This document shows positions 16,572-60,902 of a stretch of DNA of 64,000 nucleotides, piece after piece. Each line of letters starts with the position of its first letter. Within the stretch, counting starts at the first letter, position 1. The notes beneath the pieces are model-generated. The model worked only from the letters and a program-made list of their open reading frames with translations, searched no databases and had not been told where the DNA came from. The stretch spans positions 14,632,001 through 14,696,000 of the forward strand of contig NC_086097.1 in NCBI RefSeq assembly GCF_963921235.1, given 5' to 3'. This DNA comes from Mobula hypostoma. Taxonomy: Eukaryota. Position numbers and translations under genes: made by a program.

Positions 16572-16775
16572 CGTGAACACAGCAGGCCAGGCAGCATCTC
16601 TAGGAAGAGGTACAGTCGACGTTTCAGGCCGAAACCCTTCGTCAGGACTGAAGGGTCTCGGCCCGAAACGTCGACTGTACCTCTTCCTAGAGATGCCGCC
16701 TGGCCTGCTGCGTTCACCAGCAACTTTGATGTGTGTTGCTTGAATTTCCAGCATCTGCAGAATTCCTGTTGTTTG
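16572..16775. mobile_element. Fold-back (palindromic) Penelope terminal-repeat insertion, young subfamily
   Basis: Inverted arms of about 68 bp around a centre at ~16641-16649; 12-bp TSD ctattatttatt at 16560-16571 and 16776-16787; sequence matches the 3' end of the Penelope at 46719. Confidence 0.85.
16613..16650 (-). ncRNA. Minimal type I hammerhead ribozyme motif (Penelope-associated)
   Basis: CAGTC CTGACGA A GGGT-TTCG-GCCT GAAA C GTC^ GACTG: 5-bp stem I, intact core, palindromic ACGT in place of stem III. Confidence 0.75.
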
Positions 16776-16830
16776 CTATTATTTATTACAAGTTTTGTAT
16801 GTGCCCTGATTGATATTTTGGACAAATATT

Positions 16831-17105
16831 GTTGGCAGCTCATCTTGGAGAAGGAAAACTCTAATCTCAAACCTCCACTGCCCTGCGGCTATACCCACTC
16901 ATGGGGAAAACTTCGAGAGTAAACCCTGAGGAAAAGTCTGGAGCTGGAATCTCTAAGGCAGTCCTACGTTGAGTTCAATGTTGACTGGCAACTCCTGCGA
17001 CGCCGCTGGTGCCAAGCTGTATCGGTCTCTGCCGTTCCATTGGATTCATCAGCTGCACGAGGAGGGGAAGCCTGCTGCATGGGCAATAGCTTGTTCTGTC
17101 CTGGT
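16831..17105 (+). mobile_element. RTE-5'UTR-like non-autonomous element, family A (partial)
   Basis: ggcagctcatcttggagaaggaaaactctaatctcaaacc motif; homologous to 24403-24988 and 33037-33598. Confidence 0.6.
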
Positions 17106-17984
17106 TTGAATATTCCATGCCGGATCTCTAAATAAATAAATAAATATCCTGGGTTTGAGAAACTTGTTATATAAATACAGCCTTTCCTTGTCAGAATAAG
17201 TGATGCAGGAGTTATGTATGGGACTATATTGAACCTCCTCTGATAACCATAGGGTATTTGGGGTTTCAGGATCTTACAGCCCAGAAGGACTCTAATATTG
17301 AATATCTTCCACTATTCCTTCAATAGATTGGGCACAATTATGTCTGTCATGATGAAGCTTTTGGTTTTTGTCCATTGCCCAGCACTGCAACGTAGTAAAC
17401 ATGGTTAAGGACAAACTCAGTTGTTATTTCTTAGTTTGATTGGACAGCCAGCCAGCAGTTGGTTCAGTAAATAACGTTTCGCCATTTTTCTTTCAATGAA
17501 GCATTGGAATTCTGTACAATATAACCCAGAGGAAGTTGCCATCTGGAGGAAATGTGTTTTCTTTAAAACAGAGAAATCTGTGAACATATTAGAATTCGTT
17601 GTCCTTTCTGACTTTGTGCTATGGCACATTACGGCAGTCCCTGACACTTCACGTTAAAGTGTTTGAGTCTTTGTGTCACAGCACCTGATTTCCTACTTGT
17701 GCCTGACCTGCTTTCTCTCATCAGCAAAGCAGCTTAGAATGTTCCATCATGGTAAGGGTTACCATGCAAATCCCAGTGCTTTGGTGTCTGTACGGTGGCT
17801 TTGTAAAGGCTGCTAAGGTAGAGACTGAAAAGGGCATCGGGAAAAAGATTGCCCAAGATGAAATCTCTCCTTGAGACCGTGTGTAAGGTAGAATGTGGTG
17901 CAGGGGTCAGTGTGGGAGGTCAAAAGGTTTGGGATGGGTTTCTGCTGCACAGGAAGAGAGAGGCAGATTTAGTGGTTCAAAACT

Positions 17985-18230
17985 AAGGTCTTTTGAGGAT
18001 AGGCTGAGCAAGCATTGGCGTGATGGAGGATGAGAAGTGACTTGATAGAGGTGTATAAGATGATAAGAGGTATAGATAGAGTGGACAGTCAGAGACATTT
18101 TTCCTAAGGTGTAAATGGAGGGGAACAATTTTAAGGTGAGAGTTAGAGATGTCAGAGGTATTTTTTTTTACACAGAGAGTGGTGGGTGTGTGGAACACAC
18201 TGCCAGGGGCGGTGGTGGAGGCAGATACAT
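17985..18230 (+). mobile_element. CR1/HER1-like LINE fragment
   Basis: ggaggatgagaagtgacttgatagaggtgtataagatgataagagg...cacagagagtggtgggtgtgtggaac encodes the CR1 ORF2 C-terminus (RxDLIEVYKM). Confidence 0.75.
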
Positions 18231-19059
18231 TGCCACGAAGAATGCCAGAGATGTAAATGATGGACTGATGTAAGTGTGGGCTTCAGGTTCATTAGGACAG
18301 CCTGTGTAGCGTAGTACAGTGGTTACGCTACAGAACTGGCGGTCAGAGCTCTGTAGACACACGAGTTCAAAAAACCCGTAATGGCAGCTGGGGAATTAAA
18401 CTTCAAACAATTAAATAAAGCTAGAATTAAAAAAAGAAGTTAATCTCACTAAGTATGGATTGCTGTAAAAATTCCAGCAGGTTTATTCTTATCCTTCAGA
18501 GAATGAATGAAGTCATCCTTTACTGGTCCGATGTGTGTGATTCCAGATGCAACTCTAGCCTCCTTCATTCTGGGGCAATCAGGGATAGGCAATATCTGGT
18601 GGGCGTTGCTCCTTTTATTTAAACAAACGGGGGAATGTGGGAAGAGGTAGCAAGGCTGCAGAGATGGAAGGAAGTGGAATGCACAGGGGGCTTAGGACTT
18701 TTGCAGCTCAGCTCAGGATCAGAAGGACAACCAGGTTACAAGTCAGTGATAAATGATAGGGATGACAAATAACCTGCTTTACATGTCTCCTCCCCACTTC
18801 CCCAGCTCACTGGAGACAGTACTTTTAACAAAAAAATACTGAGAGCTATTTTTAGTAAAACACGGTACTCAACGGCTCTGTAAAAGATTCTTCCTTCACA
18901 ACAGGGCTGCAACCTATTGAGGAGATCAATCCTTCGCGTCCCGTGATCTTCACATATAAAATGGTCTAGCAGTGACATCTGAAAAAGCTGTATTGGAAAT
19001 CTTTTTTTTCCTTATTTTTTTAATCCCTTGCAATATTACATTCCAATTTGCATAAACCC

Positions 19060-20905: not shown

Positions 20906-22090
20906 TAAGAGTGAAACAGGTCCTAAAAATCCAGCTGAATGGGAAGAAAAAGATCAGAGCCATCAAAGCATTCACCCTACCAGTCATCAGATACCCAGCC
21001 ACAATAGTGTGCTGCCCAAGGAACGAACTGGAAGCCACTGACATCAAGATCTGGAAATACAAATAATACATGGAGGATTCTGCCCAAAGTTCAACGTTGA
21101 GCAACTGTAGAATAAAGAAGGATGGGGACTTGGAACTGTCAAGATCACAGTCCTGGAAGAAATGCAAAACACCATGAGTATGTCAGGAAGATGATCTGCT
21201 AGGAGAATACCTCAGACAGCAGTCAGGGGACATGGAAATGGAAGTGGGTGAAGCAGAGCCAGAGGACCAGAGGCCATGACAGGACAAGCCACTGCATAGG
21301 ATGTATCAACACCAGATGTCAGAGGTGGCTGACATGGGGAAGTCCTACCAATGACTGGAAATGGCAGGGCTGAGGGTCAGTACAGAGGGCTGTTCATGGC
21401 TGCACAAGGACAGGTGCTGAGCACAAGATCAATAGAAGCAGAGGTCTATCACACCAGACAAGACCCAAGATGCAGACTGTGCAAGGAATCCACTGAACCC
21501 ATCCAGCACACAATAACAGGGTGCAAGATGCAGGCAGGGACAGCAGACACTGAACAGCACAACCAAGTTGCAGAAACTGTGTGCAGGAACATCTGCACTG
21601 AGTATGGAATGGACTATCCCAATTCCAAATGGGAAACACCCGATAAGGTAGTGGACAATGACAGAGCTAAGACCCTGTGGCACTTCCAAATACAGACTGA
21701 TAGGCAGATACTGGCCAACCAACCAGACATAGTAATACTGGACAAGAAACAGAAGAAAGCGATAGTAAGAGATGTGGCAATCCCAAATGACAGTAACATC
21801 AGGAGGAAAGAATATGGAAGCTGGAGAAATACCAGGGCTTGAAAGAGCAGATAATAAGGTCGTGGAAGGTTAAAGGCAGAGTTATTCCAGTGGTGATAGG
21901 AAAACTTGGAGCTGTGACTGGGAGAGTGGCTCCAACAAGTCTTGGGAAAAACATCTGAGATCTTGGTCCAGAAGAGCGCACTGCTAAGAACAAGGAAACT
22001 GCACTGAACACTCAAGTTCTCAGACCTCTGGTAGAGGACCTGAGATTGAGGGAAAAAATACACAAACACACCACCCTTAACGGGTAAGAA
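20906..22090 (+). mobile_element. R4/Dong (Rex6-like) non-LTR retrotransposon, 5'-truncated and degenerate
   Basis: ORF 21351-21842 has a CCHC knuckle (CRLC..IQHTITGC) and a restriction-like endonuclease motif (HNQV..PDIV..D.AIP); stops and frameshifts flank it. Confidence 0.85.
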
Positions 22091-22474
22091 ATATATATAT
22101 ATATATATGCCAGTGATATCAAACCTGATTCTGTGAAACATGTCACTGGGCACTTAATTCTTTTGGATATAACAGGGCAACAAAACAGATGTACCGAACA
22201 ACCACATCAATAGTTTTGCTGTTAAAATGGGAGTGACCGTCTGAGTGAGGAAGTTTCCCCTCATGCTCCCTTTAAACAATTCACCTTTCACCCTTAACCA
22301 ATGAATGACCTCTGGTTGTCATCCCACCCAACCTCAGTTGAAAAAAAATGCCTGCTTGCATTTACTCTATCTATACCCTCATATGTGACAGTAATTAAGC
22401 CCCGATTATCAATTACCCATGATTCCTTCAGCATCTCAAAGTCTCAGATTTGAAAACAATCATTCAACATTTCA

Positions 22475-23078
22475 TCGTCGTGGCTACCCCTCGAGGTCGA
22501 GGATGATGGTCTTCGTTCTGTTGATCTACTTATGGGCTCTCAAGTGGCTTATGAGTCTACATTCAGGACAGGTAGTTCCAGGTGGCAGATCGGACTTTCG
22601 TTGTTGCTGCCTCTCTTTCCATTTTCTTCTCTTTTCTTCTAATTCTGCACATCTGTTGGCTTTGAAAGTTGCTGTTCCTTCTCGGATGATGGCTTGCCAG
22701 AGTTTCCTGTCCTTGGCATTGGTTTCCCAATTGTTGATGTCGATGTTACATTTCTTCATGTCGGCGTTTAAGACGTCTTTGAATCTCTTCTGTTGTCCGC
22801 CTCTTTTATGTTTGCCTTCTTTAAGCTGGGAGTAGAAGATTTGTTTTGGCAGACGTTCGTCTTTCATCCGAACAACATGACCGCTCCATCTTAGTTGGTT
22901 CTTGATGACGTAGGTTTCAATGCTTGTTGTTTTTATTTCATTTAGCACACTGACATTGGTTCTTCTATCTTCCCAGCTGATATTTAAAATCTTTCGAAGA
23001 CAGCGTCGATAGAACTTTTCAAGTGCCTTCAGATGTCATCGGTATGTTGTCCAGGTTTCTGATGCATACAGGAGCGTT
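22475..23078 (-). mobile_element. RTE-clade LINE 3' fragment
   Basis: ORF 22526-22948: QLRWSGHVVRMKDERLPKQIFYSQL..GGQQKRFKD..CPEC..LISH. Confidence 0.9.
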
Positions 23079-26620: not shown

Positions 26621-26789
26621 ATTCATTAGCATCAGCTTGAACCCTTCCTTAAATCTCTCAGGAGTAAATTTTGTTCAATGCCTTCATATCTTTTTTTTTA
26701 TGTTAAAGGTTAAGGTTTGTTGAAGACACCACCGTTGTTGGCCAAACCAAGTGACGAGAGAGATTGAAAATCGGGTTAAATGGGGTGCT

Positions 26790-27520
26790 ACAACAACCAA
26801 AGCAAAACCAAAGAGCTGATTATGGATTGCAGGAGGATGACGCCAGAGGTCTGTGAGTCAGTCCTCATTAGGGGATTGGAGGTTGACAGGGTCAGCAACA
26901 TTAAATTCCTTGGTGTCATCATATCAGAGGACCAACACATAAATACCATTACAAGAAGGCACAGCAATGCCTCTAATTGCTTAGAAGTTTGTGTAGATTC
27001 AGCATGTCACAAAAAAATCTTGACAAACTTCCATGGACGTTCGGTGGAGAGTATCTTAACTGGTTGCATCACTTACATGGAGCACTGCCACAAGAAAGTA
27101 GCATCCATCATCAAAGTCCCCCACCATCCAGGCCATGCTCTCTTCTCGCTACTACCATCGAGCAGGAGGTACAGGAGCCTTATGTCCCACACGACCCAGT
27201 TTAGGGACAATAGTAACCCTATATCTATCTGGCTCCTGAACCGGGGTGGATAACGCCACTCATCACAACTGATTCTACAATCTACAGACTCACTTTCGGG
27301 ACTCTTTCCAGCTCATGTTCTCAGTCATTTTTATTGCACAGCTTGTCTTCTCTCGCACGTCGGTTGTCTGTCAGTTTTTGTTTATGTATCATTTTTTTGT
27401 AAATTCTATTGCAATTCTTTGCTGTAAGTACTTGCAGGAAAATGAATCTCAAGGTACCATGGTATGTGGCACCATACAGTATACGTATTTTGATGATAAA
27501 TTTTATTTTGACTTTGAATT
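26790..27520 (+). mobile_element. Rex1/Babar LINE 3' fragment
   Basis: ORF 26780-27253: KTKELIMD..KFLGVIISED..ESILTGCIT..HHPGHALFSLLPSSRRYRS. Confidence 0.85.
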
Positions 27521-28344
27521 TGTCTATACTGATTACTGACACTCATCGTCACATGCATCATCCTCTGACCTCTCCATGGCACTGATCATTAAGATACAAA
27601 ATACAAGAAATTATCGCAATCTATGTGTGGGTGGGATGTACAGAATCAAACAGAATGAAGGTGTTTCCATTGCAATGTTGTATCCAAATCCAGCCTTCTA
27701 ATTTCCTTCCACATGAAGCCCTGTCTTCCCTGTGCTCACTTTCTCCCTAAAGATTCATTCACTGATTTCATCTTGTCCAAACGATCAACAGCCTTTTGTC
27801 TGTACCCTATTGACCAAGCCAAAGTTTGATGTGGACACTGGTTTGTAATGATCTTTGGACATAGGCAGCAACTCTTCCAAAGAAATCCTTTCTATCTACA
27901 GTAAATACTGCATAAAATTACAGCACAGGAGAAGATCACCTAGCATATTAAGTTTGTGTTTGTTTGATTTTTACAGAACAGTTCATCCCATACCTATTTG
28001 TCTTCCTATTCAATTCTTTTCTGAGATCCATGAATGACAGTTTCCATGGCCCTTTCAGACATGGAGGTCGAGATCATAGTCCCATTCTTTCCAGCGTTCA
28101 ATATCTTTCCAAAGTCCTGCTGAATGTGTTGTTAAGACTCTTAATGAAGCCTGATTTAGGATAAGAATGGTACTAGCTTTGGTTCTATTCTCAAAAATAA
28201 CAGCATATATCTTCTTGCACACACTTGAACTACACCATTCTAGGTCAGTGATGGCAAATTCCATGTAAGCCCTGTCAATAAGAAATAACAATATTAAAAA
28301 AAGGTCCTATAATCCCTCTAACCTGCTGTGCTCTTCAGAAGATA

Positions 28345-29365
28345 ATGCTTCCCTTGTCCACTCGTCCATCCCCACTGATCTCCCTTCCGTAACTTACCCC
28401 TGTAAGTGGGACAGGTGCTACATCTGCCCCTACACCTCCTCCCTCATCATTATTTGGGGCCCAAAATGGTCCTTCTAGCAATACTTCACCTGTGAGTCTG
28501 TCAGTTATTTACTCTATTCAATGCTTCCAGGGCGGCATCCTCTACGTCAGTGAGACCCGACATAGATTAGGGGACCGCTTCGTCGAGCACCTTCCACCTT
28601 CTGAAGGTCTAACACAAAAGGTAAGGTATCCCATTGGCCACCCATTTCGATTCTACTTCCCATTCCTATCCCAACATGTCAGTCCGTAGCCTCTTCTACC
28701 GTCACCATGAAGCCATTCTCAGGTTGGAGAAGTAACACCTCATATTCTGTTTGGGTAGTCTCCAATTTGATGGCATGAATATTGATTTCTCTAACACTTA
28801 GTATTTCCCCCTTCCCCTTTCTCCCTTTTTCCATTTTCCTCTTTCATCCCTTCCCTTTTCCTCACCTGCCCATCAACTCCCCCGGTGCCCCTCTTCCTTC
28901 CTTTTCTCCCATGGTCCACTCTCTTCGTCTATATCAGATTCTTCCTTCTTCAACCCTTTACCTCTTCCACCTATTACCTCCCAGATTCTCACTTCAACCC
29001 CCTCCTCCCACCCACCTAACTTCACCCTCACCTGGTCTCATCTAACTAACACCTGCCAACATGTACTCCTTCTCCTCCACCCACCTAACTTCACCCTCAA
29101 CTGGTCTCACCTAACTAACACCTGCCAACATGTACTCCTTCTCCTCCACCCACCTAACTTCACCCTCACCTGGTCTCACCTATCACCTGCTGCTCCTTCT
29201 CCTCCCACCACCTTCTTACTCTGGCTTCTTCCTCCTCCTTTTCCAGTCCTGATGAAAGGTCTCGGCCCAAACCATCGGCTGTTCATTCCTCTCCATAGAT
29301 GCTGTCTGAACTGTTAAGTTCCTCCAGAATTTTGTGTGTTTCCAGTACCTGCAAAATCTCTTGTG
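28345..29365 (+). mobile_element. Penelope-like element (GIY-YIG remnant plus terminal repeat), older subfamily
   Basis: LYVSETRHRLGDRFVEHL; pyrimidine-rich 3' region; decayed hammerhead at ~29244-29281. Confidence 0.85.
29011..29183. repeat. 69-bp tandem repeat (~2.5 copies) within the Penelope 3' region
   Basis: Units start at 29011, 29080 and 29149. Confidence 0.85.
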
Positions 29366-29641
29366 CTGGTTGAGTTGGGTCCACTTTGCTCCCAATTTTT
29401 ATATCCTCTGATCCTATCATATCTAAATACCTACCAGACACAACCTTCAGTGAAGCCAATGTTGGAATGTCTGGGGTGGAGAATTCAAAATGCTCACAGC
29501 TCACTGCAGGAAGATATTTCTCTTCCACGAGCTGACCCCTTATCCTATCACCATGACTCCTAGAAGTAGTCTTTCCAGCCGGAGGATGTGCTCTCTTAAG
29601 ATCTCAAACGTTGATATATTAAAAATTGATAAAGACTGGGT

Positions 29642-30747: not shown

Positions 30748-30824
30748 AAAGACTGGGTGACCAACACTACAGGAGGTCAAATGTCCTTCTGCTGTGTAGT
30801 CTGTGGGATTGAAGATGATTTACT

Positions 30825-31420
30825 TCCAGAGTAACAGACACAAATTGCTGGAGGAACTCAACAGGGCAGGCAGCAGCTGTGGAAATAAATAAACAGTCAA
30901 CATTTTGGGCCGAGACCTTTCATTAGGACTGGAAGACACCAGGGCAAGAAGGTGGGGAGGGGGGGGAGGGGGAGGGGAATGAGTACAAGCTAAAAAGTGA
31001 TAGGTGAAGCCAGGTGTGGGAGGGGGTGGTGAAGCAAGAAGCTGGGAGGTGATAGGTGGTAGAGGCAAAGGACAGAATCTGATGGGAGAGGAGAGTGGAA
31101 TGAGGAGCAACACCAAGGGTGGATGATAGGCTGGTGGGGAGAAGAGGAGAAATAAGAGGGGAACAGACTGTGGAATAGAAGCGAGAATGGGGATGGGGGG
31201 TGCAATTACCAGAATTTAGAGAAATTAATGTTCGTGCCGTCAGGCTGGGGGCTACCCATATGGAATGTGAAGTGTTGCTCCTCCAACATGACAGTGGTCT
31301 CATCGAGGCCATGGACTGACATGTCAGAGTGGGAATGGGGACTGGAATTTAAATGGTTAGCCATCAGGGTATCCAGTTTGTTGCGGATGGAGTGAAGGTG
31401 CCTGACTTACTTCCATGCCA
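30825..31420 (-). mobile_element. Penelope-like element fragment, older subfamily
   Basis: Homologous to 46719-47650; decayed hammerhead at ~30893-30932. Confidence 0.8.
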
Positions 31421-32399
31421 GGTCTGTCAGCTCTGGAATGGCTAACAATGCCATTGTGGGAACTGCAGAGACAGATACGACAGGAGGTATCTAATGGTTT
31501 GTCAGGCTGTCCTCTACTTGCCATTGTCTCTGTGTCCCCCCGATGCACATTCTCAGGGTTCTAGAGTGCCTTCTACGCAGCCTTACAGAAAGAGCCCAGT
31601 GCACCGACTGAGTTTTTCTGCACTAAGTTGGCTTCATTGCAAATTGAGAGAGAGTTGAGGAATTGTGCTGACAGCAGGCAAGCAGGAAATGATGTTGCTC
31701 AGGTGTCAGAATGGACTGCAACCAGCGGGAACTGACTAATCTGGAAAATAATGTCTTCTGTAAGCAGAAGGAAAGATGAAATATTCAGCCGACAGGTGGG
31801 AATTTGATTTCTCAGTACATTCAGAGACAGCAGCAAGGTTTAAGCCTGGGATTCGGAAGAAAGCTTTCATGTTTGGTGAAGGTATAGAAGGAAAATGCCC
31901 AGAGTCTTGCATCTGATTACCAAAGTCGGTGAGTGTGAACATCAGAGGACTGAGTCAGCTGTCCATGGGCGTTGACATTCATACGATGTCACTTGCATGT
32001 ACCTGCCAACGTTTGCTGGTGTGAACATCAGCATCATGCCTACTGTAACGAAGAGTTATGGAGTTAACCATGGTCCCTGGGAGACGTTCAGACTCTGCGC
32101 AGACAGCATCTAAGGTCAGGATTGAATACCGGAGCCATACCGTAGAGGCTCTATTACACCATGCGGCAGATTGTGCACAAGTGTGAACAGAGAAAGGGAG
32201 TTCGTTGTACATAGGTGTGAACAGAAAAAAATGGTAGTTGTGCAGTAGTGAGAGATGAGTAAGCTTCTGAATATTGGTGCCGAGTGATTCCCCCAATCCA
32301 CATCATTACCTACTATGTAATTAGCAAGAACTTGTACAACACTACCCCCCTCCCCTCCCCTACACAACAGCAAGCTGTATCCTCTCTTCTCCTGAGCAG

Positions 32400-32716
32400 C
32401 ATATGCAAAATGCCAGGGGAACTCAGCAGGCCAGGCAGCATCTATGGAAAAAAAGGAAACAGTTGACATTTTGGGCCAAGACCCTTCTTCAGGACTGGAA
32501 AGGAAGGAGAGAAGTCAGAGTAAGTGGGGGGAGGGGAGGAAAAGTTCAATGTGCCAGTTGACAGGTGAAAGAGGGAGAGGGGGAGGGGTGAGGTAAAGAG
32601 CTGACAGGTTGATTGGTGAAAGAGATACAGGGCCGGAGAGGGGGGAATCTGATAGGAAAGGGTAGAAGACCATGGAAGAAAGGGAAGGGAGAGGATCACC
32701 AGAGGGATGTGATAGG
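32400..32716 (-). mobile_element. Penelope terminal-repeat fragment
   Basis: gaactcagcaggccaggcagcatctatgg...acccttcttcaggactgg. Confidence 0.75.
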
Positions 32717-33036
32717 CACCTCTCCTCCTGTCCTCTCCTGGCCTGAGGACTATCACAGCAACGAAATTATTGTCAAACTCAGTGCACCAGACTCATCAGA
32801 ATGGAGACCCAGTGCTGAGGGAACAATGCCTGTAAAATAATATCTCAGTTCAGCATTCTCATGGACAATGGAAAGAAAACTAGAATGAACAGTTTGTTTT
32901 AGAAAAGGAGTCCATTGGAAAAGAAAATCCAAAACAGCACACGGTGGAATTCTGAAAAAGAACAAGAACTGGAAATGCTGGAAACACTCATCAGATCAAC
33001 CTGTTTCTCTTTCTAAAGAATGCTTCCATATTGCCT

Positions 33037-34440: not shown

Positions 34441-34658
34441 AACAAGAGAAAATCTGCAGACGCTGGAAATCCGAGCAATGCACACAAAAGGCTGGAGGAA
34501 CTCAGCAGGCCAGGCAGCACCTAGGAAAAGAGTACAGTCGACATTTCGGGCCGAAACCCTTCGGCAGGACATGGGTTTTGGCCCGAAATGTCGACAGTAC
34601 TCTTTTCATAGATGCTGCCTGGCCTGCTGAGTTCCTTAAGCAGTTTGTATGTGTCGTG
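34441..34658. mobile_element. Fold-back Penelope terminal-repeat insertion
   Basis: Inverted arms around ~34565-34572; degenerate TSD gcactttcact / gcatttttact. Confidence 0.8.
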
Positions 34659-36044
34659 CGCATTTTTACTGTAAGTTTTGATCTACACATGATCATTAAA
34701 TGAATCTGAATTGATGTATCTTGTTTTCTTCCATTACTTTGAATATCCCTCTTTTAAATTAAATTTGTGGTGATATTTCTCAGTGAAGCCTCTGCAGGAC
34801 TTTTGTTGCATGAACAGACTGTGCCGATGAGAGGCAGTCTGCAACACCCTTCAGAACCCCCAGCAAGTATTTTTTTAAATGCACGATGCAGAAAAATAAC
34901 AACAACAGTAACATCTCTTCTGTTTTCCACATGTCTCCCGAGGCTCCAGGCACGTGCCAACTCTCTCGGTGCGCCGTCCGGTTCAGAGCCGTGTCCCGTG
35001 AGGCAACTCATGAGCCAGCTCCCCCTGCCACCGCGTACACTAAGTGGCTGCCACACACCCTAATTTCTCCACTGAGCTGAGATGCTTGGAGCCAGCTAAT
35101 CCGAAGTGTGGAGGGATTGGAGACTCAGCCAAGATACGATGGACGGTGCTCCTTGCATGTTTCACGAGAGGGGGCACCTCTTGCTTTAAGACCATAAGAC
35201 GTAGGAGCAGAATTATGCCATTCGGTCCATGGAGACTGATCTGCTGATTCATCATCCGTAACAAGATAAGAAATAGGAGCAGGAGTAGGCCATCTGGCCC
35301 GTCAAGCCTGTTCCGCCGTTCAATAAGATCATGGCTGATCTTGCCTGCCTTTTCCCTATAACCCTTAATTCCCCTACTATGCAAAAATCTAGCCAACCTT
35401 GTCTTAGATATACTTACTGAGGTAGCCTCCACTGCTTCATTGGGCACAGAATTCCACAGATTCACCACTCTTTGGGAAAAGCAGTTCCACCTCATCTCCG
35501 TCCGAAATCTACTCCCCCGAATCTTGAGGCTATGTTCCCTAGTTCTAGTCTCACCTATCAGTGGAAACAACTTTCCTGCCTTTATCTTATCTGTCCTTTT
35601 CATAATTTTATATGTTTCTATAAGATCTCCCCTCATTTTTCTGAATTCCAGCGAGTACAGTCCCAGATGACTCAATCACTCCTCATAGTCTAACCCCCTC
35701 ATCACTGGAATCAACCTGGTGAACCTCCCCTGCACTACCTCCAAAGCCAGTATATCCTTCCTCAAGTAAGGAGACCAGAACTGCATGCAGTACTCTAGCA
35801 ATGAAGGCCAGCATTCCATTTGCCTTCTTGATAGCCTGCTGCACCTGCAAACCAACCTTTTGTGATTCATGCACAAGCACTCCCAAGTCCCTCTGCAAAG
35901 TAGCATGCAGCAAATTTTTACCACATAGTTGATAATCTGCTCTTTCATTTTTCTTTCCAAAGTTGATGACCTCACATTTACCAACATTGTACTCCATCTG
36001 CCAGACCCTTGTCCACTCACTTAACCTATCTATATCTCTCTGCA

Positions 36045-36275
36045 TAAACGTGAGGAATTCTGCAGATGCTGGAAATTCAAGCAACACACATCAAAGTTGC
36101 TAGTGAACGCAGCAGGCCACGCAGCATCTCTAGGAAGAGGTACAGTCGACGTTTCGGGCCGAAACCCTGTTAGTTAGTCCTGACGAAGAGTCTCGGCCCG
36201 AAATGTCAACTGTACCTCTTCCTAGAGATGTTGCCTGGCCTGCTGCGTTCACCAGCAACTTTGATGTGTGTTGCT
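36045..36275. mobile_element. Fold-back Penelope terminal-repeat insertion, young subfamily, nested in CR1
   Basis: Inverted arms of about 90 bp; 14-bp TSD tata(t/c)ctctctgca at 36031-36044 and 36276-36289; mutated hammerhead at 36176-36211 (+). Confidence 0.85.
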
Positions 36276-38429: not shown

Positions 38430-38625
38430 TCCCCCTCCCTCCCCAACCCACCTGGTTCACCTATCTTCTTCTAGCTTGTCCTCCTCCTCCTCTCCCCATC
38501 TTCCTATTCTTGTATCTTCCCCTTTCCTTTCCAGTCCTGAAGAAGGTTCTCGGCCCAAAGGTCGAGTGTTTATTCATTTCCATAGGTGCTGTATGACCTG
38601 CTGATTTCCTCTAGCATTTTGCAGG
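38430..38625 (+). mobile_element. Penelope terminal-repeat fragment
   Basis: ttccagtcctgaagaaggttctcggcccaaagg (decayed hammerhead). Confidence 0.7.
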
Positions 38626-38994
38626 AGGTATGTGTCCTCGTAGAATTGTAACCCAGCAGGACATAGAACAGAGACTGCTGATTGGCTGAAGGATGCATTA
38701 AGCTAATATCCCATTGGATCAGCACATAGGACAGGAAATAAACCCAATGACCATTGGAGGGCAGGCAAGAGAGGTATGTGGAAACTTGGTCAAGACGTCC
38801 TGGGAAGGCATTAAAACAGTAAAGAAGCAGTGAATGATGGTATCTGCAACAGAAACACTCAGTAGGTCAGGCAGTATCTGTGGATAGAGAAACAGAGGAG
38901 ATGTTTCGGTTCAATGAACTTCCATCAGAACTGTCCACCATCTCTCTAAGATAGTTCTGTTGATCTTGTTTCTCCCTCTGCAGATGCATCACAC

Positions 38995-41945: not shown

Positions 41946-42649
41946 TGTATTTACTGTAAATAGCAAACTTCCCAAGCAGCTGATGCAGTGTCCTACAGGA
42001 AGACTGAGCATGGTTCACAATGCGGCAGTAAATGTCATTGGAGCCCAGGGAATTGCAGCTTCATAATTTTCACTTGTTTTATATAATTTTGAGTAATTTG
42101 TACATATAATAACGTAGTTATGAAAAGATATAACAGTGCGTCTTTCTATTTCCCAGCGAATTCTCTCAATGAAAATATAAACTAATACACTGTGTAAAAC
42201 GTTCTTCCCCAAAATGAAAAATAAATTGAGTTTAAAGGACCAGAGGTTGGTGGTTTCTGCAGTCATTCGATTGTGTGTTTTATTTATTTACTCAGGTTCG
42301 GTATTGTACAAGGAATTGTGGTCACTGACACTGCAGTCGACGTACAGGGCAGCACCTGAGATTCATAATAACCGAGAGGAGCGCAGATACTCCCCCCAGT
42401 TGAAAGGGAGTGAAACTCTGGCAGAAACTGGAAAGGGTGTAAGAGATGAAGGCAGCCGTGGGGGAAGAAACATGCAGTTCCTCGGCTGAGAGACCAGGCC
42501 AGGGGAACAGAAAGCTGCCGAAAATCAGAAATTGCAGGAAATACCCAGGGGGTCAGGCAGCACCCGTTGGGGGAGAAATAAAATAACATTTTGGACGAGA
42601 GAATTTTTGTCAACACTGGGAAAGGTTGGAACCCACATCCTAGTATAGT

Positions 42650-43375
42650 CATGAGCACTACAGCACCAATACAGGACCTTCGGCCCATCTGGTCTGTGTT
42701 GGACTATTGTTCTGCAGAGTCTCGTCAACCTGCACCCAGTCTATAGCCCTCCATACCCTTCTCATCCATGTACCTATCCAAAATTTCTCTTCAATGTTGA
42801 AATTGTTACCGCATCCACCACTTCCACTGGCAGTTCATTCAATACTCTCACCATCCTCTGAGTGAAGAAGTTCCCCCCACGTTCCTCTTAAACATTTCAC
42901 CTTTCACTTTTAACCCATCACCTCTAGCTGTAGTCTCACCAAACCTCACTAGAAAATGCCTGCTTATATTTACCTTATCAAAGCCCCTCAAAATTTTCTC
43001 AGCACCTTTTACTTGAAACATTAATTCTGCTTCCCTCTCCAGTGCCATCCCTGACTTAGGCGGTAAAGATAAATTCACACTCTGACACTCTTGTACAGAC
43101 ACAATCCTGAATTATCTAAGCAACACACGCAAAATGCTGGAGGAACTCAGTAGGCCAGACAGCATCTATGGAAAAGAGTAAACAGTCGATGTTTCAGGCT
43201 GAGACCCTTCATCAGGAACCATTAAATTTCATTGAAGAGAAACCTGGATAGGTACATGGATAGGAAGGGTACAGAGGGCAATGGTCTGGGTGCAGGTCGA
43301 TTGATGAGACGCTGCAGAATAATAGTTCAACACAGACCAGATGGGCCAAAAGGCCTGTTTCTGTGCTGTAGTTCT
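42650..43375. mobile_element. CR1 fragments flanking a Penelope terminal-repeat piece (~43120-43218)
   Basis: Minus strand of 43183-43218 reads CTGATGAAGGGTCTCAGCCTGAAACATCGACTG. Confidence 0.65.
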
Positions 43376-46280: not shown

Positions 46281-46718
46281 ATAGATGATATGTCATGAGT
46301 GGGTTACTTGTTCTTGGTGTCATTTGATTTAAACAGTTGCTGCAGTTAAACCACTGGTCAATGATATTGATGATGTGGGATCCAGCTACAGCACTGGCAT
46401 TGACTGCCAACGATCAAAGTTCAGAGTAAATTTATTATCAAAGTATGTATATATCACCTTAGTACCCTGAGATCCACTTTTTTCAGGCACTTACAGTAGA
46501 ACAAAGACATTCAACAGAGTCAAAGAAAACTACACATAAAAACTAACAAACAACTGATGCTCAAAGAAAACAATTTGAGCAATTAGAAAAAAAGCAACAA
46601 ATAATAACAGGTGAATAAGTAATAAATAATATTGAGAACATGAGTTGTAGAGTCCTTGAGGGTGAGCCCATTGGTTGAGGAATCAGTGCAGTGTTGAGGT
46701 CAGTGTTGTTATCCATGC

Positions 46719-47650
46719 AACACACATCAAAGTTGCTGGTGAACGCAGCAGGCCAAGCAGCATCTATAGGAAGAGGCGCAGTCGACGTTTCAGGCCGAGA
46801 CCCTTCGTCAGGACTAACTGAAGGAAGAGTGAGTAAGGGATTTGAAAGCTGGAGGGGGAGGGGGAGATGCAAAATGATAGGAGAAGACAGGAGGGGGAGG
46901 GATAGAGCCGAGAGCTGGACAGGTGATAGGCAAAAGGGGATACGAGAGGATCATGGGACAGGAGGTCCGGGAAGAAAGACGGGGGGGGGGTGACCCAGAG
47001 GATGGGCAAGAGGTATATTCAGAGGGACAGAGGGAGAAAAAGGAGAGTGAGAGAAAGAATGTGTGCATAAAAATGAGTAACAGATGGGGTACGAGGGGGA
47101 GGTGGGGCCTAGCGGAAGTTAGAGAAGTCAATGTTCATGCCATCAGGTTGGAGGCTACCCAGACGGAATATAAGGTGTTGTTCCTCCAACCTGAGTGTGG
47201 CTTCATCTTTACAGTAGAGGAGGCCGTGGATAGACATGTCAGAATGGGAATGGGATGTGGAATTAAAATGTGTGGCCACTGGGAGATCCTGCTTTCTCTG
47301 GCGGACAGAGCGTAGATGTTCAGCAAAGCTGTCTCCCAGTCTGCGTCGGGTCTCGCCAATATATAAAAGGCCACATCGGGAGCACCGGACGCAGTATATC
47401 ACCCCAGCCGACTCACAGGTGAAGTGATGCCTCACCTGGAAGGACTGTTTGGGGCCCTGAATGGTGGTAAGGGAGGAAGTGTAAGGGCATGTGTAGCACT
47501 TGTTCCGCTTACACGGATAAGTGCCAGGAGGGAGATCAGTGGGGAGGGATGGGGGGGACGAATGGACAAGGGAGTTGTGTAGGGAGCGATCCCTGCGGAA
47601 TGCAGAGAGAGGGGGGGAGGGAAAGATGTGCTTAGTGGAGGTGATCCCAT
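46719..47650 (-). mobile_element. Penelope-like element, young, 5'-truncated, with uninterrupted GIY-YIG domain ORF
   Basis: ORF 47109-47663: CYTCPY..FTCESAGVIYCVRCSRCGLLYIGETRRRLGDSFAEHL..EEQHLIFRLGSLQPDGMN; 15-bp TSD tgttgttatccatgc at 46704-46718 and 47651-47665. Confidence 0.93.
46780..46815 (-). ncRNA. Minimal type I hammerhead ribozyme motif
   Basis: AGTC CTGACGA A GGGT-CTCG-GCCT GAAA C GTC^ GACT, in the same sense as the Penelope ORF and ~300 nt after its stop. Confidence 0.78.
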
Positions 47651-48619
47651 TGTTGTTATCCATGCTGGTTCAGGAGCCTGAAGGTTGAATGGTACTAACT
47701 TAACATGGTGGTGTGGGACCTAAGGCTCCTGTACGTCCTTCTCAATGGTAGCCATTGCATTCATAGAGCATAGCCTGGGTGGTGCTGGTCCTTCGTGATG
47801 TAGATTCTCTTTCCTTGTGGCAGCACTCCCGTAGATGTGCTCAATGGTGGGGAGGGCATTTCCTGTAATAGACTGGGCTGCCAAGGATATATGCTATCGT
47901 TTTTTAAAAGCAGAACAACCAATTAGTAAGGTTTCACAGGTAATTCGGTAAATCAGTTTATTATTTTCGCCTGTACTGAGGTACAGTTAAAAACCCATCT
48001 TACATACTGTTCATACCGATCAAATGATGACACAGTGCATTGAGGTGTAACAATAACAGAGTGCAGAAGAAAGTGTTACAGTTATGGAAAAAGTGCAGGT
48101 AGACAGTAAAGTGCGAGCTAATACATGTAAAACGAAGTATATTATGAGGTTAAAGGAACTGGGCATGAAATGGGCTCGTAACTCGTGTAAATAGGGTTAT
48201 TAAGCACGATTGCTCTCAGCGCTGTCATTGTGGTCTGACTCCAGAGGTGATTGTCGTTCACATTCTGGCCAGTGTTAGTGCACTTTCACGGCACTGAGGA
48301 GTGGGCCGACACAAAAGCGGTCCTCCGGGCTGCTGATAATTTGCTGTTCTATCCAATTACCGAATGCCCTAAAAACAGTAATGATGTCCGAGTATGTGTA
48401 CAATGTGTATCTGATTAAAGATCCCTTCAACAGCAGTCAAATTTAAATTCCTATTCGTGCAATAGGGCGAATAATTAGAATTCACTCTGAACGCTGAGAT
48501 GTACACATTCGGATAAGATTTTTGAATACATTTAATTATTGTCTCCCTGTACTTTGATGCATCTAACACCCACCTGAACCTTGCCTACACCTCTTCAGAC
48601 CTGCTTGCCACTGAACAAG

Positions 48620-51769: not shown

Positions 51770-51904
51770 CTTTAGGTAAAAGAAACAACATCATGAAGTG
51801 GCTGTTATTTCATTAGCGCTTATGGGAGCTTGCTATGTCCAAGTTGGCAGCCACGTTTCCCTCAACTTTGTCAAGGGTTTAAATAGACACAGCATACTCA
51901 GAAT

Positions 51905-51985
51905 CTGGCTGACCTGTTGAGTTCCTCCAGCATTTTGTGTGTGTTGCTTGGATTTCCAGCATCTGCAGATTTTCTTGTGTTTGTG
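51905..51985 (+). mobile_element. Penelope terminal 3' fragment
   Basis: gagttcctccagcattttgtgtgtgttgcttggatttccagcatctgcagatttt. Confidence 0.7.
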
Positions 51986-52714: not shown

Positions 52715-52988
52715 ACACAAGACATTCTGCAGATGCTGGAAATCTAGAGTAACACACACAAAGTGCTGGTGGAACTCAATAGATCAGGCAGCGTCTATGG
52801 AATCAACAGTTGACGCTTTGGGCCAAGACCCTTCATCAGGACTGGAAAGGAAGAGGGAAGAAGCCAGAATAAGAAGGTGATAGATGTGTACTCCTTCCCT
52901 TCCCTCCACTTTATTCTGGATTCTTCCCCCTCCTTTCTAGACGCGATGAAGGGTCTCGGTCCAAAATGCCATCTATTTATTCCTCTGT
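52715..52988. mobile_element. Fold-back Penelope terminal-repeat element, older subfamily
   Basis: Inverted arms with two decayed hammerheads (~52807-52845 minus, ~52940-52975 plus). Confidence 0.7.
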
Positions 52989-53314
52989 GATATCACCTAA
53001 CTCTACAGAGTGCCTGCTGCCAAAGCCCTCACTTGAGCCCTACTTGCAATACACTTGGTTGACCCCTATTTTCTACTCCCTTGCTGCCCATGTCCTAGCT
53101 TACATTAAGTCCAGTTTAACGACCACCTCATTGGGATCCAGGTTAAGCAGCAATTTTGCATGGACCATCCTTGTTTTCGAGTCTGATCATGGCTTCTCCA
53201 CTCTGTATCTCATCCAGCACTGCAATATCAGAACTCCTCCAAATATGGATTCACGATATTCCCTGAAGGTCGTGATTGCGTTACTGGATACTGTACCTTT
53301 TGCTACCAAGGCTA

Positions 53315-56469: not shown

Positions 56470-57780
56470 TCAGAGTCAAAATCAGGTTTATAATCACTGA
56501 TAATCATTCAAGAAATGTATTGCTTGTGGCTGCAGTATCGTGAAAGACATCAATATTACTATAAGGTACAAATAAATCAATAGCGCAAAAGAGGAATAGT
56601 GAGGTGGTGGTCATGACTTCAAGGACCATTCAGATTTCTGATGGTGGAGGGAAGGAAGCTGTTTCTAAAACGTTGAGAGTATGTCTTCCTCTCTGATGGT
56701 AGTAATGAGAAGAGGGCTTGTTCAGGATGGTGAGGGTCTTTAATGATGGGTCATGCCTTCCTGAGGCATTGCCTTTGGACAATGTCCTCAATGTTGGGAG
56801 GGCTGGAGCTGGCTCAGCCTATAACCCTCCTGCAACCTCTTTCAATTCTACCCATTGGGGCCTCCACACTAGGCAGAGATGCAACCAGTTAGAAAGCTCT
56901 TCATGTTAAATCTAGAAATCTTCTGGAGTCTTTGGTGCGTACCAAATCTGCTCAACCTCCTAACATACAAACGTAGTCGTAGTCACAGTCATAGTCATAC
57001 GTTACTGATCCCGAGGGAAATTGGTTTGCTTTACAGTTGCACCATAAATAATTAAATAGTAATAAACCCATAAATAATTAAATAGTAATATATAAATTAT
57101 GCCAGGAAATAAGTCCAGGACCAACCTATTGGCTCAGGGTGTCTGACCCTTCAAGGGAAGAGTTGTAAAGTTTGATGGCCACAGGCAGGAATGACTTCCT
57201 ATGACGCTCTGTGTTGCATCTCGGTGGAATGAGTCTCTGGCTGAATGTACTCCTGTGCCCACCCAGTACATTATGTAGTGGATGGGAGACATTGTCCAAG
57301 ATGGCATGCAACTTGGACAGCATCCTCTTTTCAGACACCACCGTCAGGGAGTCCAGTTCCATCCCCACAACATCACTGGCCTTACCAATGAGTTTGTTGA
57401 TTCTGTTGGTGTCTGCTACCCTCAGCCTGCTGCCCCAGCACACAACAGCAAACATGATCGCACTGGCCACCACAGACTCGTAGAACATCCTCAGTATCGT
57501 CCAGCAGATGTTAACAAAGTAGAGCTGCTGGCATGCCTTCTTCATGATTGTGCCAATGTGCTGGGTCCAGGATAAATCCTCAGAGATGTTGACACCCAGG
57601 AATTTGAAGCTGTTCACTCTTTCCACCACTGCCCCTCAATGAGGACTGGTATGTGCCCTTCTGACTTCCCCTTCATGATGTCTACAGTCAGTTCCTTGGT
57701 CTTTTTGAGTGCAAGGTTGTTGTGATATCATTCAACCAGCTGATCTATCTCACTCCTGTACACTTCCTCATTACCATTTC
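56470..57780 (-). mobile_element. Rex1/Babar LINE with a second, younger Rex1 family nested at ~56966-57511
   Basis: Chimeric ORF 57126-57629; the insert has its own (gactat)n-type tail. Confidence 0.85.
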
Positions 57781-58330: not shown

Positions 58331-59024
58331 TACCTTCAGTATCTCCCCCCAGGTTTAAAAACCCTTCATTTCCAGTTGTGACATCTATATAGAGTAATAC
58401 AGCACAGAAGCAGGTCCTTCAGCCTTACCCATCCATGATGCCCAGCTTAGCTCGTCTCATTTGCCTGCACTTCGCCCATTTCCTCCTAAACCTTTCCTAC
58501 ATGCTTTATCACTTGGAGAACACCTAGGCTTGGGCTGGAAAGCAGATAGCAAGCTTCATGTCAGATGCTGACTATCTTCAAAAAACAAACAAGAGACACA
58601 AATTCCATCCAGGCACTTATCTACAATATTATCACCAGATATGTCCTGAGGGTTGCCATTGACCAGAGGAGGAGCTGGGCCAGATAGCTGAATACAGCTG
58701 AAATTGCTGCCTCAGCAGAGCAGCATATTCTGTAGTTAAATGAGGCTCCAAAATTTCTCAACCACCAACAAGGCACTAATCTGGAGGCTGATGGCATAAT
58801 CTTCACTCACTGTGTTGGGAGCAGCTGTAACTACACACAAGAGTCTACTATCTAGGATAACAGAATCTGTTGAATTGGCTGTTCGCCACTCTTCCTCTTA
58901 AACATGAAGCCTTTGTGTTGCTGGCATATCATGGCTGCAGATCTACTGTACCTCAGGCATGGCGACAAGAGCCCAGTGCTACCTCAACAGCATATCCCAA
59001 CCTTTCAGCTTATTTATTCATTCA

Positions 59025-60020
59025 TAAAGCTGAGGGTTTATAAGGCATTGGTCAGACTGCACTCAGAGTATTGTGAGCAGTCTTGGATCCCATATCCAAG
59101 AAAGCATGTGCTACCATTGGAGAAGGTCCAGAGGAGGTTCATGAGAATGATCCTGGGAATGAAAGGGTTAACATATGAAGAGTGTTTAATGGCTCTGGGT
59201 CTGTACTTTGCTGGAGTTTAGAAGAACATGGGGGAGGGAGAGGGGATCACATTGAAATCTATTGAATATTGAAAGGCCGAGACACCCAAACCCTGAAAAG
59301 TTGCAGCATAACCTCCCTGCTCTTAAATTCAGTCCCTCTAGCAATGAAGGCCTACATTCTGTTTGCCTTCTTGATAGCCTGCTGCACCTGCAAACCACCT
59401 TTTCCCAAAGAGTGGTGAATCTGTGGATTTTTCTGCACAATGAAGCAATAGAGGCTACCTCAGTAATTATGTTTAAGACAAGGTCGGGTAGATTTTTGCA
59501 TAGTAGGGGAATTAAGGGTTATGGGGAAAAGGCAGGTGGGTGGAGGTGAGTCCATGGTCAGATTACCCATAATCTTATTGAATAGTGGAGAGCATTTGGC
59601 AGGCCAGATGGCCTACTCCTGCTCCTATTGCTTATGTTCTTATATTCTTATGTTCTTAAGAGATAGAGTGGATGAGGAGATGTTGTATCCTACAGTGGGG
59701 AAAACTAGGACCAGAGGGCACAGCCTCAGAATAGAAGGATATCCCTTTAGTGCAGAGATGAAGAGGAATTTCTTTAGCCAGAAGATAGTGAACTTGTGGC
59801 ATTGATCACCACAGACGACTGTGGAAGCCAAGTCACTGGGTATGTTTAAAGCGGAGGTTGATAGGTTCTTGACTTAGCAAGGGCATCAAAGGTTAAAGGG
59901 AAAAGGCTACAGGACGATTGGGCTTGAGAGGGATAATAAACCATCCATGATGGAATGATGGAAATGACCAAATGGGCCGAATGGCCTAATTCTGCTCCGA
60001 TGTCTCAGGCCTTATGGTCT
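59025..60020 (+). mobile_element. CR1 LINE with nested, 5'-inverted CR1 of another family (~59285-59657)
   Basis: ORF YKALVRLHSEYCEQSWIPYPRKHVLPLEKVQRRFMRMI; the nested copy ends tatgttcttatattcttatgttctta. Confidence 0.8.
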
Positions 60021-60294
60021 TATTCACAGGACATGCATATCACCGAGAAGGGTTGCATTGATTATGCTATGCCATTTCAGGGGCAATTCGGAGCCAGTTC
60101 TCGCACTTACTATAATAGGCGAGCACTCATACATAGACAGACCAGACCAGGTAAAGACGTCAAACTTCCTTCTCTTGCACGCATTAAATGAACCAGACAG
60201 GTTTTCACAACAGTGACAGTTTGGTGGTCATCATAACAAGTAGTAGCTTTTAATTACCAGATTTGTATTTCATGAGCTGGATTGAAGTTGTGGA

Positions 60295-60590
60295 TGGACG
60301 GTATGGTAGTGTAGCGACCAGCGCAATCGTTTTGCGTTGCTGGCTGTCATGAGTCAGGGTTCGATTCCCGTTACCACCTGTAAGGCATTGGTACGTTCTC
60401 CCTATGACTGCATCGGTCTGCTATGGTTACCTGCCGCATTCCAAAGGTGTACTGTACTATTAGGGTTAGTGAGTTGTGAGCATGCTCTGTTGGCGGCAGA
60501 AGTGTGGCAATACTTGCAGACTGCCCACAGCAGTTTGCTGTATGTTTTGATGTGTATGTGAGAAATAATGCTGATCTCTTTAAATCTTTA
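60295..60590 (+). mobile_element. Degenerate tRNA-derived SINE (V-SINE-like head)
   Basis: tggtagtgtagcg A box, gggttcgattcc B box, degenerate V-domain. Confidence 0.55.
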
Positions 60591-60716
60591 AGTTTCCAGC
60601 TGCTGTGGTGTGATTTAAACAACTCCAGGTATTTAGTTCAGATCTCTAGATTACCTGTAACATCGACACTTTATGGCACCCACAATAGCACTTAAAAGGA
60701 ACAGATGCATTAAGTG

Positions 60717-60902
60717 CGCAAACACGAGGAAATCTGCAGATGCTGGAATTTCAAGCAACACACATAAAAGTTGCTGGTGAACGCAACAGGCCAGGCAGCA
60801 TCTCTAGGAAGAGGTACAGTCGACGTTTCGAGCCGAGACCCTTCGTCAGGACTAACTGAAAGAAGAGCTAGCAAGAGATTTGATAGTGGGAGGGGGAGGA
60901 GG
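60717..60902 (-). mobile_element. Short Penelope terminal-repeat insertion, young subfamily
   Basis: 14-bp TSD agatgcattaagtg at 60703-60716 and 60903-60916. Confidence 0.88.
60818..60853 (-). ncRNA. Minimal type I hammerhead ribozyme motif
   Basis: AGTC CTGACGA A GGGT-CTCG-GCTC GAAA C GTC^ GACT. Confidence 0.75.

What the first reader, a model, noticed from the sequence alone, without database searches (positions are those of the whole stretch)
16613..60853. Hammerhead-ribozyme-bearing Penelope family dispersed through the window
Seen: the consensus (C)AGTC-CTGA(C/T)GA-A-GGGT(C/T)TCGGCCC-GAAA-C-GTC-GACT(G) is intact at 16613-16650, 46780-46815 and 60818-60853 (all minus). It is decayed at ~29244, 30893, 32460, 34536, 36176, 38532, 43183, 52807 and 62250. 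It has stem I, the CUGANGA and GAAA cores with one extra A, a 4-bp stem II and a GUC triplet, with a palindromic ACGU replacing stem III. Established: Penelope-like elements carry minimal type I hammerheads, thought to cleave as dimers. Inference: at this density the genome would hold a very large number of copies, including near a key regulator. I cannot say whether this family is already catalogued.
Basis: partly seen in the sequence, partly recalled or inferred. Interest (0 to 1): 0.75.

Follow-up and report, generated by a model that had tools for sequence, protein, structure and literature searches.

The report
Ray Penelope retrotransposon with minimal hammerheads
The repeats are truncated, mostly decayed 3' ends of a Penelope-type retrotransposon, likely from a ray, each carrying a minimal hammerhead-ribozyme motif of an already described kind that is predicted to cut RNA only weakly and in pairs; the notable extras are their density and a tendency of inverted copies to join inside the ribozyme.

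Summary
Observation confirmed. All 12 listed sites are real, and a hammerhead descriptor finds exactly the three named copies (0 in 200 shuffles). None equals the stated consensus; each has one C>T change in stem II. The Penelope link is now shown: three copies continue upstream into a GIY-YIG endonuclease end (93% identical to a Mobula hypostoma protein), 5 of 15 insertions have 12-15 bp target duplications, and palindromic copies and optional tails match published Penelope-like element (PLE) anatomy. The motif fits the published minimal-hammerhead consensus. Stems I and II covary across distant relatives (7 of 9 pairs). Window copies decay mainly at CpG sites with no detectable core protection and lie 10-56 kb upstream of a BCL11B-like start codon, so nothing supports a regulatory role. 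Cleavage is untested, and folding disfavours the active form. New details: 4 of 5 inversion junctions fall in the ribozyme's 5' half, and extrapolated copy number is about 10^5 intact-looking motifs per genome. Verdict: new member of a known kind.

The parts
47109..47650 (-). C-terminal end of the PLE ORF: CX4CxxC linker and GIY-YIG endonuclease with CCHH residues, ending in a stop codon (5'-truncated copy)
   Evidence: (93% to P0001 of Mobula hypostoma); Pfam GIY-YIG E 0.014, below cut-off
46817..47108 (-). pyrimidine-rich 3' UTR / pseudo-LTR between the stop codon and the hammerhead
46779..46816 (-). minimal type I hammerhead motif, all 11 core nucleotides present, G10.1-U11.1 wobble
46704..46718 (.). 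15-bp target duplication, partner at 47651-47665
60817..60854 (-). minimal hammerhead motif, core complete, G-U at stem II pair 2
60717..60902 (-). short insertion (about 50 nt UTR, hammerhead, full tail); 14-bp duplication at 60703-60716 and 60903-60916
16613..16650 (-). minimal hammerhead motif, core complete, G10.1-U11.1 wobble
16572..16775 (.). palindromic insertion: short loop-bearing minus arm (16573-16649) and long tailed plus arm (16650-16775) starting at G8; 12-bp duplication at 16560-16571 and 16776-16787
36045..36275 (.). palindromic insertion: short loop-bearing plus arm, long tailed minus arm; 14-bp duplication with 1 mismatch at 36031-36044 and 36276-36289
34441..34668 (.). palindromic insertion, junction in the 5' half of the motif, decayed (A6 lost); no duplication found
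52715..52990 (.). decayed minus copy (motif 52807-52844) with an inverted partner arm; junction about 45 nt upstream of the motif
28338..29375 (+). older 5'-truncated copy: frameshifted GIY-YIG end (28338-28795), UTR, decayed motif at 29244-29281, tail
30810..31544 (-). older 5'-truncated copy: GIY-YIG relic (31544-31191), UTR, decayed motif at 30893-30931
32388..32720 (-). older copy, UTR and decayed motif at 32460-32497 (G12>A)
38449..38630 (+). older copy, decayed motif at 38532-38569
43111..43219 (-). copy 5'-truncated inside stem I; core letters kept, stems broken
62167..62311 (-). older copy, decayed motif at 62250-62287
51900..51983 (+). tail-only fragment
16046..16107 (-). tail-only fragment
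533..5964 (-). context, not part of the element: coding exons 1 (5964-5914) and 2 (874-533) of a BCL11B-like gene

Best explanation
These are 5'-truncated and inverted 3' ends of an endonuclease-bearing Penelope-like retrotransposon (likely Neptune clade, likely from a myliobatiform ray) whose pseudo-LTR carries a minimal type I hammerhead motif, predicted to cut after GUC only as a pair and likely only with protein help in the source element, while the scattered copies are likely inert and decaying. Steps: (1) Shown: ORF end, UTR, motif and tail form one unit flanked by 12-15 bp target duplications. (2) Inferred from the Anolis Poseidon work: the element's endonuclease nicks the target and reverse transcription starts inside the RNA at one of two preferred sites, which gives short and tailed 3' ends (here near +95-105 and +132-143 from stem I). 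(3) Inferred: the template was uncut RNA, since copies run through the cleavage site (+32) and none of 20 arms begins there. (4) Inferred: cDNA stops early, often at a short inverted repeat between the pyrimidine run just upstream of stem I and the catalytic core; when both target strands are primed, the two cDNAs anneal there and give a palindromic insertion. (5) Supported by covariation and by the bounds of conservation: selection keeps the motif in the source lineage, not at each site; after insertion its four CpG sites decay.
For: GIY-YIG end directly upstream in 3 copies. Relatives carry RT motifs and weak RVT_1 hits upstream of the same domain. Target duplications at 5 of 15 insertions tested. 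Match to the published consensus CUGANGAH-G..C-GAAAN-palindrome-NUH. Among 25 metagenome loci found by protein alone (40-49% identity in most), 6 hold a minimal motif: 4 on the same strand 85-105 nt after the estimated ORF end, 1 at +1039, 1 inverted; background 1 minimal hit in 1.9 Mb of randomised sequence against 95 kb real. 7 of 9 stem pairs change on both sides; 92.6% of cells paired against 15-41% when slid. In 3 of 4 laid runs contigs diverge at 46779 and 46815, the ends of stem I (402/406, 348/300 and 15/10 contigs; table 7), so flanks change between subfamilies while the motif stays. CpG positions changed 34 of 135 against 19 of 287 others.
Against: No RT domain, full ORF or upstream direct pseudo-LTR lies in the window, so the clade rests on the linker motif, not on an RT tree. 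19 of 25 metagenome loci gave no motif (4 of them lack downstream sequence). The covariation set was picked by a descriptor that demands pairing, and holds only 9 rows, 3 of them near-identical ray copies. Within the window no compensatory change is seen. Nearest-neighbour folding prefers an inactive rod (monomer -9.9 to -12.6 against -5.9 to -8.6 kcal/mol) and an extended duplex (dimer -28 to -30 against -11 to -15 for the double hammerhead). Rfam finds no hammerhead. No duplication found at 10 of 15 insertions.
Confidence: 0.85

Rival explanations
1. The motif is kept in the source element as a structural or protein-binding signal (or a vestige) and never cleaves in vivo.
For: Folding disfavours the active form. 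No copy begins or ends at the cleavage site (0 of 20 arms). In Anolis Poseidon, catalytic mutants did not affect insertion in vitro and no RNA-seq reads ended at the site (PMC11167929). Naiads spread without the motif (PMC8557442).
Against: The catalytic core letters are invariant across distant relatives while both stems covary. The Anolis motif cleaved when protein was added, and schistosome dimers showed low cleavage.
Confidence: 0.25
2. The short copies are an independent non-autonomous family (retrozyme-, SINE- or MITE-like) amplified from their own short or palindromic master.
For: Most insertions are under 350 bp, and 5 of 15 are palindromic. A 2026 preprint reports tandem hammerhead retrozymes in its one chondrichthyan genome.
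Against: 5' ends vary from about -900 to +60 and the inversion junctions all differ in sequence, as expected from independent truncation. No head-to-tail tandem. Duplications are 12-15 bp and ends are staggered, unlike a MITE.
Confidence: 0.1
3. The palindromic copies arise by self-priming fold-back of a single strand at the hairpin rather than by twin priming.
For: A hairpin forms at the junction site (cDNA sense -1.2 to -3.6 kcal/mol, weak). Both arms at 44.17k share A6>G. Self-priming was proposed for rotifer PLEs from palindromes at inverted junctions (PMC3846280).
Against: At 16.6k and 36.1k the loop-bearing arm is shorter than its partner and both ends abut the target duplication; a fold-back copy of the loop-bearing cDNA cannot be longer than its template.
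Confidence: 0.3
4. Some copies were co-opted to regulate the neighbouring BCL11B-like gene, for example by cutting an upstream RNA.
For: Three copies keep all core letters and lie on the gene's strand, upstream of it.
Against: They belong to the least diverged subfamily, which explains the intact core (4 of 48 CpG and 4 of 102 other sites changed). In older copies core changes (9 of 100) do not differ from tail changes (57 of 440; p 0.31; small sample). None of 15 insertions lies in the first 16 kb, the CpG-rich gene and promoter region.
Confidence: 0.03

Closest known systems
Minimal hammerheads (min-HHR) of metazoan Penelope-like elements, Cervera and de la Pena 2014 (PMC4209133)
   Same: CUGANGA core, one extra nucleotide between 9 and 10.1, G10.1-C11.1, no stem III with palindromic 15.2-16.2, place in the pseudo-LTR, mostly solo copies and some close opposite-strand pairs.
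   Different: Stem II is 4 bp, at the short end of the listed range. No cartilaginous fish appears in the supplement part read or by term search (file 1 not searched). Extrapolated load here is about 10^5 against about 4,000 (coelacanth) and 9,000 (Xenopus) reported, with different descriptors.
Neptune-clade EN+ PLEs (described in PMC8557442)
   Same: C-terminal GIY-YIG with CCHH residues, CX2-5CxxC linker, 5' truncation, inverted 5' copy, optional 30-40 bp tail on one end.
   Different: RT is not in the window, so clade was not placed by tree; Nematis shares the linker. Inverted copies here are reduced to 200-230 bp palindromes.
Poseidon of Anolis carolinensis (PAc), Frangieh et al. 2024 (PMC11167929)
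   Same: Two preferred 3' ends, copies made from uncut RNA, motif that folds poorly alone.
   Different: Poseidon clade. Its ORF starts inside stem II; whether this family's ORF starts in the motif was not tested.
Non-LTR retrozymes (bioRxiv 10.64898/2026.07.22.740005)
   Same: Type I hammerhead derived from PLE pseudo-LTRs; reported in one chondrichthyan genome.
   Different: Defined by tandem units; the copies here are dispersed, variably truncated and three are joined to ORF ends.

Membership tests
EN+ Penelope-like element | C-terminal GIY-YIG endonuclease with CCHH residues | tested here: met
   ORF 47109-47650 ends in the domain and a stop; invariant C89, C92, Y96, G98, E99 and near-invariant H127, H133 in 15 sequences; Pfam hit weak, E 0.014, above cut-off in relatives P0006 and P0014
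EN+ Penelope-like element | telomerase-related RT upstream in the same ORF | tested here: inconclusive
   not in the window (tblastn); relatives carry RT motifs with RVT_1 E about 1e-4, below cut-off
EN+ Penelope-like element | pseudo-LTR with inverted 5' copy and optional 30-40 bp tail | tested here: met
   5 inverted insertions; two classes of 3' end about 35 nt apart. An upstream direct pseudo-LTR was not seen
EN+ Penelope-like element | short target-site duplication | tested here: met
   12-15 bp at 5 of 15 insertions
Neptune clade | CX2-5CxxC linker before the endonuclease | tested here: met
   C46-x4-C51-x2-C54; also found in Nematis and Naiad, the latter excluded by domain order
Neptune clade | RT phylogeny | not tested
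Minimal type I hammerhead | CUGANGA, extra nucleotide, GAAA, NUH | tested here: met
   all 11 core letters in 5 of 17 arms, with both stems in 3
Minimal type I hammerhead | palindromic 15.2-16.2 replacing stem III | tested here: met
   ACGU in the three complete copies and in all 6 metagenome motifs
Minimal type I hammerhead | covarying stems I and II | tested here: met
   7 of 9 pairs across 9 sequences, set chosen by a pairing descriptor; no compensatory change among window copies
Minimal type I hammerhead | self-cleavage after NUH as a dimer | not testable with these tools
   no raw RNA reads were offered; folding energies disfavour the active form
Rfam hammerhead families | covariance-model score | tested here: not met
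   no hammerhead family among 16 matches at E up to 5; likely because stem III is absent (inference)
Non-LTR retrozyme | at least two consecutive tandem units with complete motifs | tested here: not met
   no head-to-tail copies among the hits

The most novel reading that the evidence does not exclude
Ray genomes hold the largest hammerhead load known in a vertebrate (order 10^5 complete-looking motifs), and the short inverted repeat that pairs the upstream pyrimidine run with the catalytic core does double duty: it holds the ribozyme off in the RNA and is the site where two target-primed cDNAs from a dimeric Penelope protein anneal. The palindromic insertions would then be a large natural record that Penelope's inverted pseudo-LTRs form by twin priming, not self-priming.
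Probability: 0.25. Interest if true: 0.55.

Novelty: new member of a known kind. Interest (0 to 1): 0.3.

Why it matters
The kind is established, so the motif itself is no surprise. The family matters in two modest ways. It extends minimal PLE hammerheads to a cartilaginous fish at a density (3 complete and 10 decayed motif-bearing insertions in 64 kb) that, if typical, exceeds reported vertebrate counts about tenfold or more, and Rfam misses it. And its many young, duplication-bounded palindromic insertions allow a purely computational test of how PLE inverted pseudo-LTRs arise and whether cut RNA is ever the template, both open points in the papers read.

Tried and rejected
Whole genome: none held, so no census. 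Rfam: no hammerhead; the 16 matches were below their gathering scores, several over the palindromic insertions. Inverted-repeat finder: the 25 pairs shown were microsatellites and other repeats. Viral contigs: no protein relative among 43 candidate stretches and no motif match. Alignment A1 was too divergent for two scans; prokaryote genomes were not scanned again. Expression: no RNA holder on record, contigs only, which says nothing for or against transcription or cleavage; one X22 contig joins 46815 to 46785 but the kind of joint was not shown. Earlier scan findings: nothing by place, words or sequence. Lunse et al. 2016 is not held and is known here only through a review passage. Rejected: chance match; MITE or retrozyme as the main identity; selection on individual copies; a role for the neighbouring gene.
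Full report
Observation. The three named copies are in the sequence. A descriptor for a type I hammerhead without stem III finds these three and nothing else in the window, against 0 hits in 200 dinucleotide shuffles. All nine decayed sites are family members. A profile search adds partner arms, a palindromic insertion at 44.07-44.30 kb, two tail-only fragments and four older relics. In all: 13 motif-bearing insertions, 2 tail-only, 4 relics, about 5.2 kb.

What the element is. The 46.7-47.65 kb copy reads, on the minus strand: the end of an ORF, a stop, about 290 nt of pyrimidine-rich UTR, the motif, and about 65 nt more, all between 15-bp direct repeats. The ORF end is a GIY-YIG endonuclease with CCHH residues preceded by a CX4CxxC linker. 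Of 25 longer relatives found, the best are from Mobula hypostoma (93%), Hypanus sabinus (83%) and sharks (55-66%); several carry RT motifs upstream (weak Pfam support). The 29.2k and 30.9k copies also continue into broken GIY-YIG ends. Domain order and linker fit the Neptune clade as described in PMC8557442 (passages); Nematis shares the linker and no RT tree was built. The host is therefore likely a myliobatiform ray (inference from identity). The predicted zebra-shark protein P0008 reads through its 3' region and ends in residues like those that the motif gives in translation here, indirect evidence that sharks carry the same motif at the same place.

Insertion anatomy. Target duplications of 12-15 bp were found at 5 of 15 insertions tested. 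3' ends group near +95-105 and +132-143 counted from stem I, with some shorter, matching the optional 30-40 bp tail and the two internal priming sites shown for Anolis Poseidon (PMC11167929, parts 1-2 of 4 read). Copies run through the predicted cleavage site at +32 and none of 20 arms begins there, so the template was likely uncut RNA, as in that paper. Five insertions are palindromic. In four the junction lies in the 5' half of the motif (about -5 to +13), against 1 of 10 plain insertions that start there (Fisher p 0.017, window chosen after seeing the data); the fifth, at 52.8k, joins about 45 nt upstream. The junctions differ from each other in sequence. At this spot the pyrimidine run before stem I is complementary to the core, and in the young subfamily this hairpin is the preferred RNA fold and buries CUGA; in the older subfamily it forms in 2 of 4 copies folded. 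At 16.6k and 36.1k the loop-bearing arm is the shorter one and both ends abut the duplication, which a fold-back of that arm cannot give; twin priming from both target strands can, and the Anolis protein extended both strands and was predicted to be a dimer. Against this, both arms at 44.17k share A6>G, and self-priming has been proposed for rotifer PLEs (PMC3846280, passages). The sample is five insertions.

Is it a hammerhead? It matches the published consensus for metazoan PLE minimal hammerheads point by point (PMC4209133, parts 1-2 of 4 and supplement file 2 part 2 of 3 read). Of 25 metagenome loci fetched by protein alone, 21 have at least 150 nt after the estimated ORF end; 4 hold a same-strand minimal motif at +85 to +105, 1 at +1039, 1 holds an inverted one, and 15 hold none; background was 1 minimal hit in 1.9 Mb of randomised sequence. 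With the three ray copies, 7 of 9 stem pairs change on both sides and the core is invariant; the set is small and was chosen by a pairing descriptor. In three of four public runs laid on the 46.7k copy, the listed loose ends include 46779 and 46815, the outer ends of stem I (table 7; only the best supported rows are shown), so related subfamilies keep the 37-nt motif while its flanks change. Catalysis is untested. Nearest-neighbour energies favour an inactive rod as monomer and an extended duplex as dimer; such energies omit the tertiary core. Published behaviour is no monomer cleavage and low dimer cleavage (review PMC6765202, passages) and protein-assisted cleavage that was dispensable for insertion in vitro. 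Rfam does not detect the motif.

Are the scattered copies functional? Probably not. Four CpG sites lie in the motif, one spanning C11.1-G12. Over 17 arms, CpG positions changed in 34 of 135 cells (32 of them C>T or G>A) against 19 of 287 elsewhere; G12 is lost in 6 arms; in 10 older arms non-CpG core changes (9 of 100) did not differ from tail changes (57 of 440, p 0.31, low power). The three complete copies belong to the least diverged subfamily. Palindromic copies would fold as long hairpins (inference), and the partner arm lacks the CUGA core in 3 of 4. The nearest same-strand complete pair is 14 kb apart.

The neighbouring gene. Exons at 5964-5914 and 874-533 (minus) encode a BCL11 protein; the named rows among the 120 hits listed are BCL11B or unnamed, none BCL11A. 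The insertions lie 10-56 kb upstream, and none of 15 falls in the first 16 kb, where CpG observed/expected is 0.58-0.80 against 0.20-0.40 beyond. Nothing points to a regulatory role.

Copy number. Three descriptor-passing motifs in 64 kb, scaled to batoid genome sizes of 2.2-4.0 Gb (bioRxiv 10.64898/2026.10.27.761883, passages), give 1-2 x 10^5, with a Poisson range of roughly 2 x 10^4 to 5 x 10^5; this assumes the window is typical. Reported counts are about 4,000 in coelacanth and 9,000 in Xenopus, by another descriptor. 17,306, 86,236 and 76,792 contigs lay on the 961-bp copy in three runs and 307 in a fourth: a large family, not a count.

Novelty. The kind is known. Seven literature searches listed no paper on cartilaginous-fish PLE hammerheads; the 2014 supplement file searched has no shark or skate term (its file 1 was not searched). 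A 2026 preprint found tandem hammerhead retrozymes in one chondrichthyan genome (bioRxiv 10.64898/2026.07.22.740005, part 1 of 5 and passages; supplements closed and may name this family). Penelope-like elements were reported in all vertebrates surveyed in PMC4350176 (passages). Two ray-genome preprints have no 'PLE' or 'ribozyme' term in the main text (supplements not seen). Dfam and Repbase could not be searched; that they hold chondrichthyan Penelope families is likely but recalled, not tested. Verdict: new member of a known kind, interest 0.3.

Noticed in passing
window 38857-38934 (-), 34030-34096 (-), 42529-42620 (-), 62813-62877 (-): Much older relics with the same tail core; the 38.9k one shows a different possible stem II (a perfect 4-bp hairpin with a 3-nt loop), hinting at an older subfamily with its own compensated stem.
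   Followed up: partly
window 44076-44296: Both arms of this palindrome carry the same A6>G core change, unexplained by independent decay: one template, later conversion, or a dead source element.
   Followed up: partly
window 46600-47760 and 44297 onward: The 46.7k copy appears to have inserted into another interspersed repeat; similar host sequence follows the 44.17k palindrome.
   Followed up: no
P0003, P0004, P0011, P0024: Ray gene models named as host proteins (divergent protein kinase domain 1C, mucin-2, chitinase domain-containing 1, NYAP1-like) include pieces of this PLE ORF: annotation artefacts or exonisation.
   Followed up: no
L024:2926-2963 (-): Inverted minimal hammerhead just upstream of a truncated GIY-YIG match in a metagenome contig, the same inverted layout as in the window.
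   Followed up: partly
window 21333-23035, 26780-27253, 29283-30447, 35040-36090, 40674-41146, 45911-46303, 57126-57635: Many ORF fragments resembling other non-LTR retrotransposons (labels recalled; only a weak zf-RVT hit).
   Followed up: no
window 6090-6750: Opposed (GA)n and (TC)n microsatellite tracts just upstream of the BCL11B-like start codon dominate the inverted-repeat list.
   Followed up: no
P0019: A PLE-like protein labelled as from a bacterial metagenome-assembled genome, likely animal DNA contamination.
   Followed up: no
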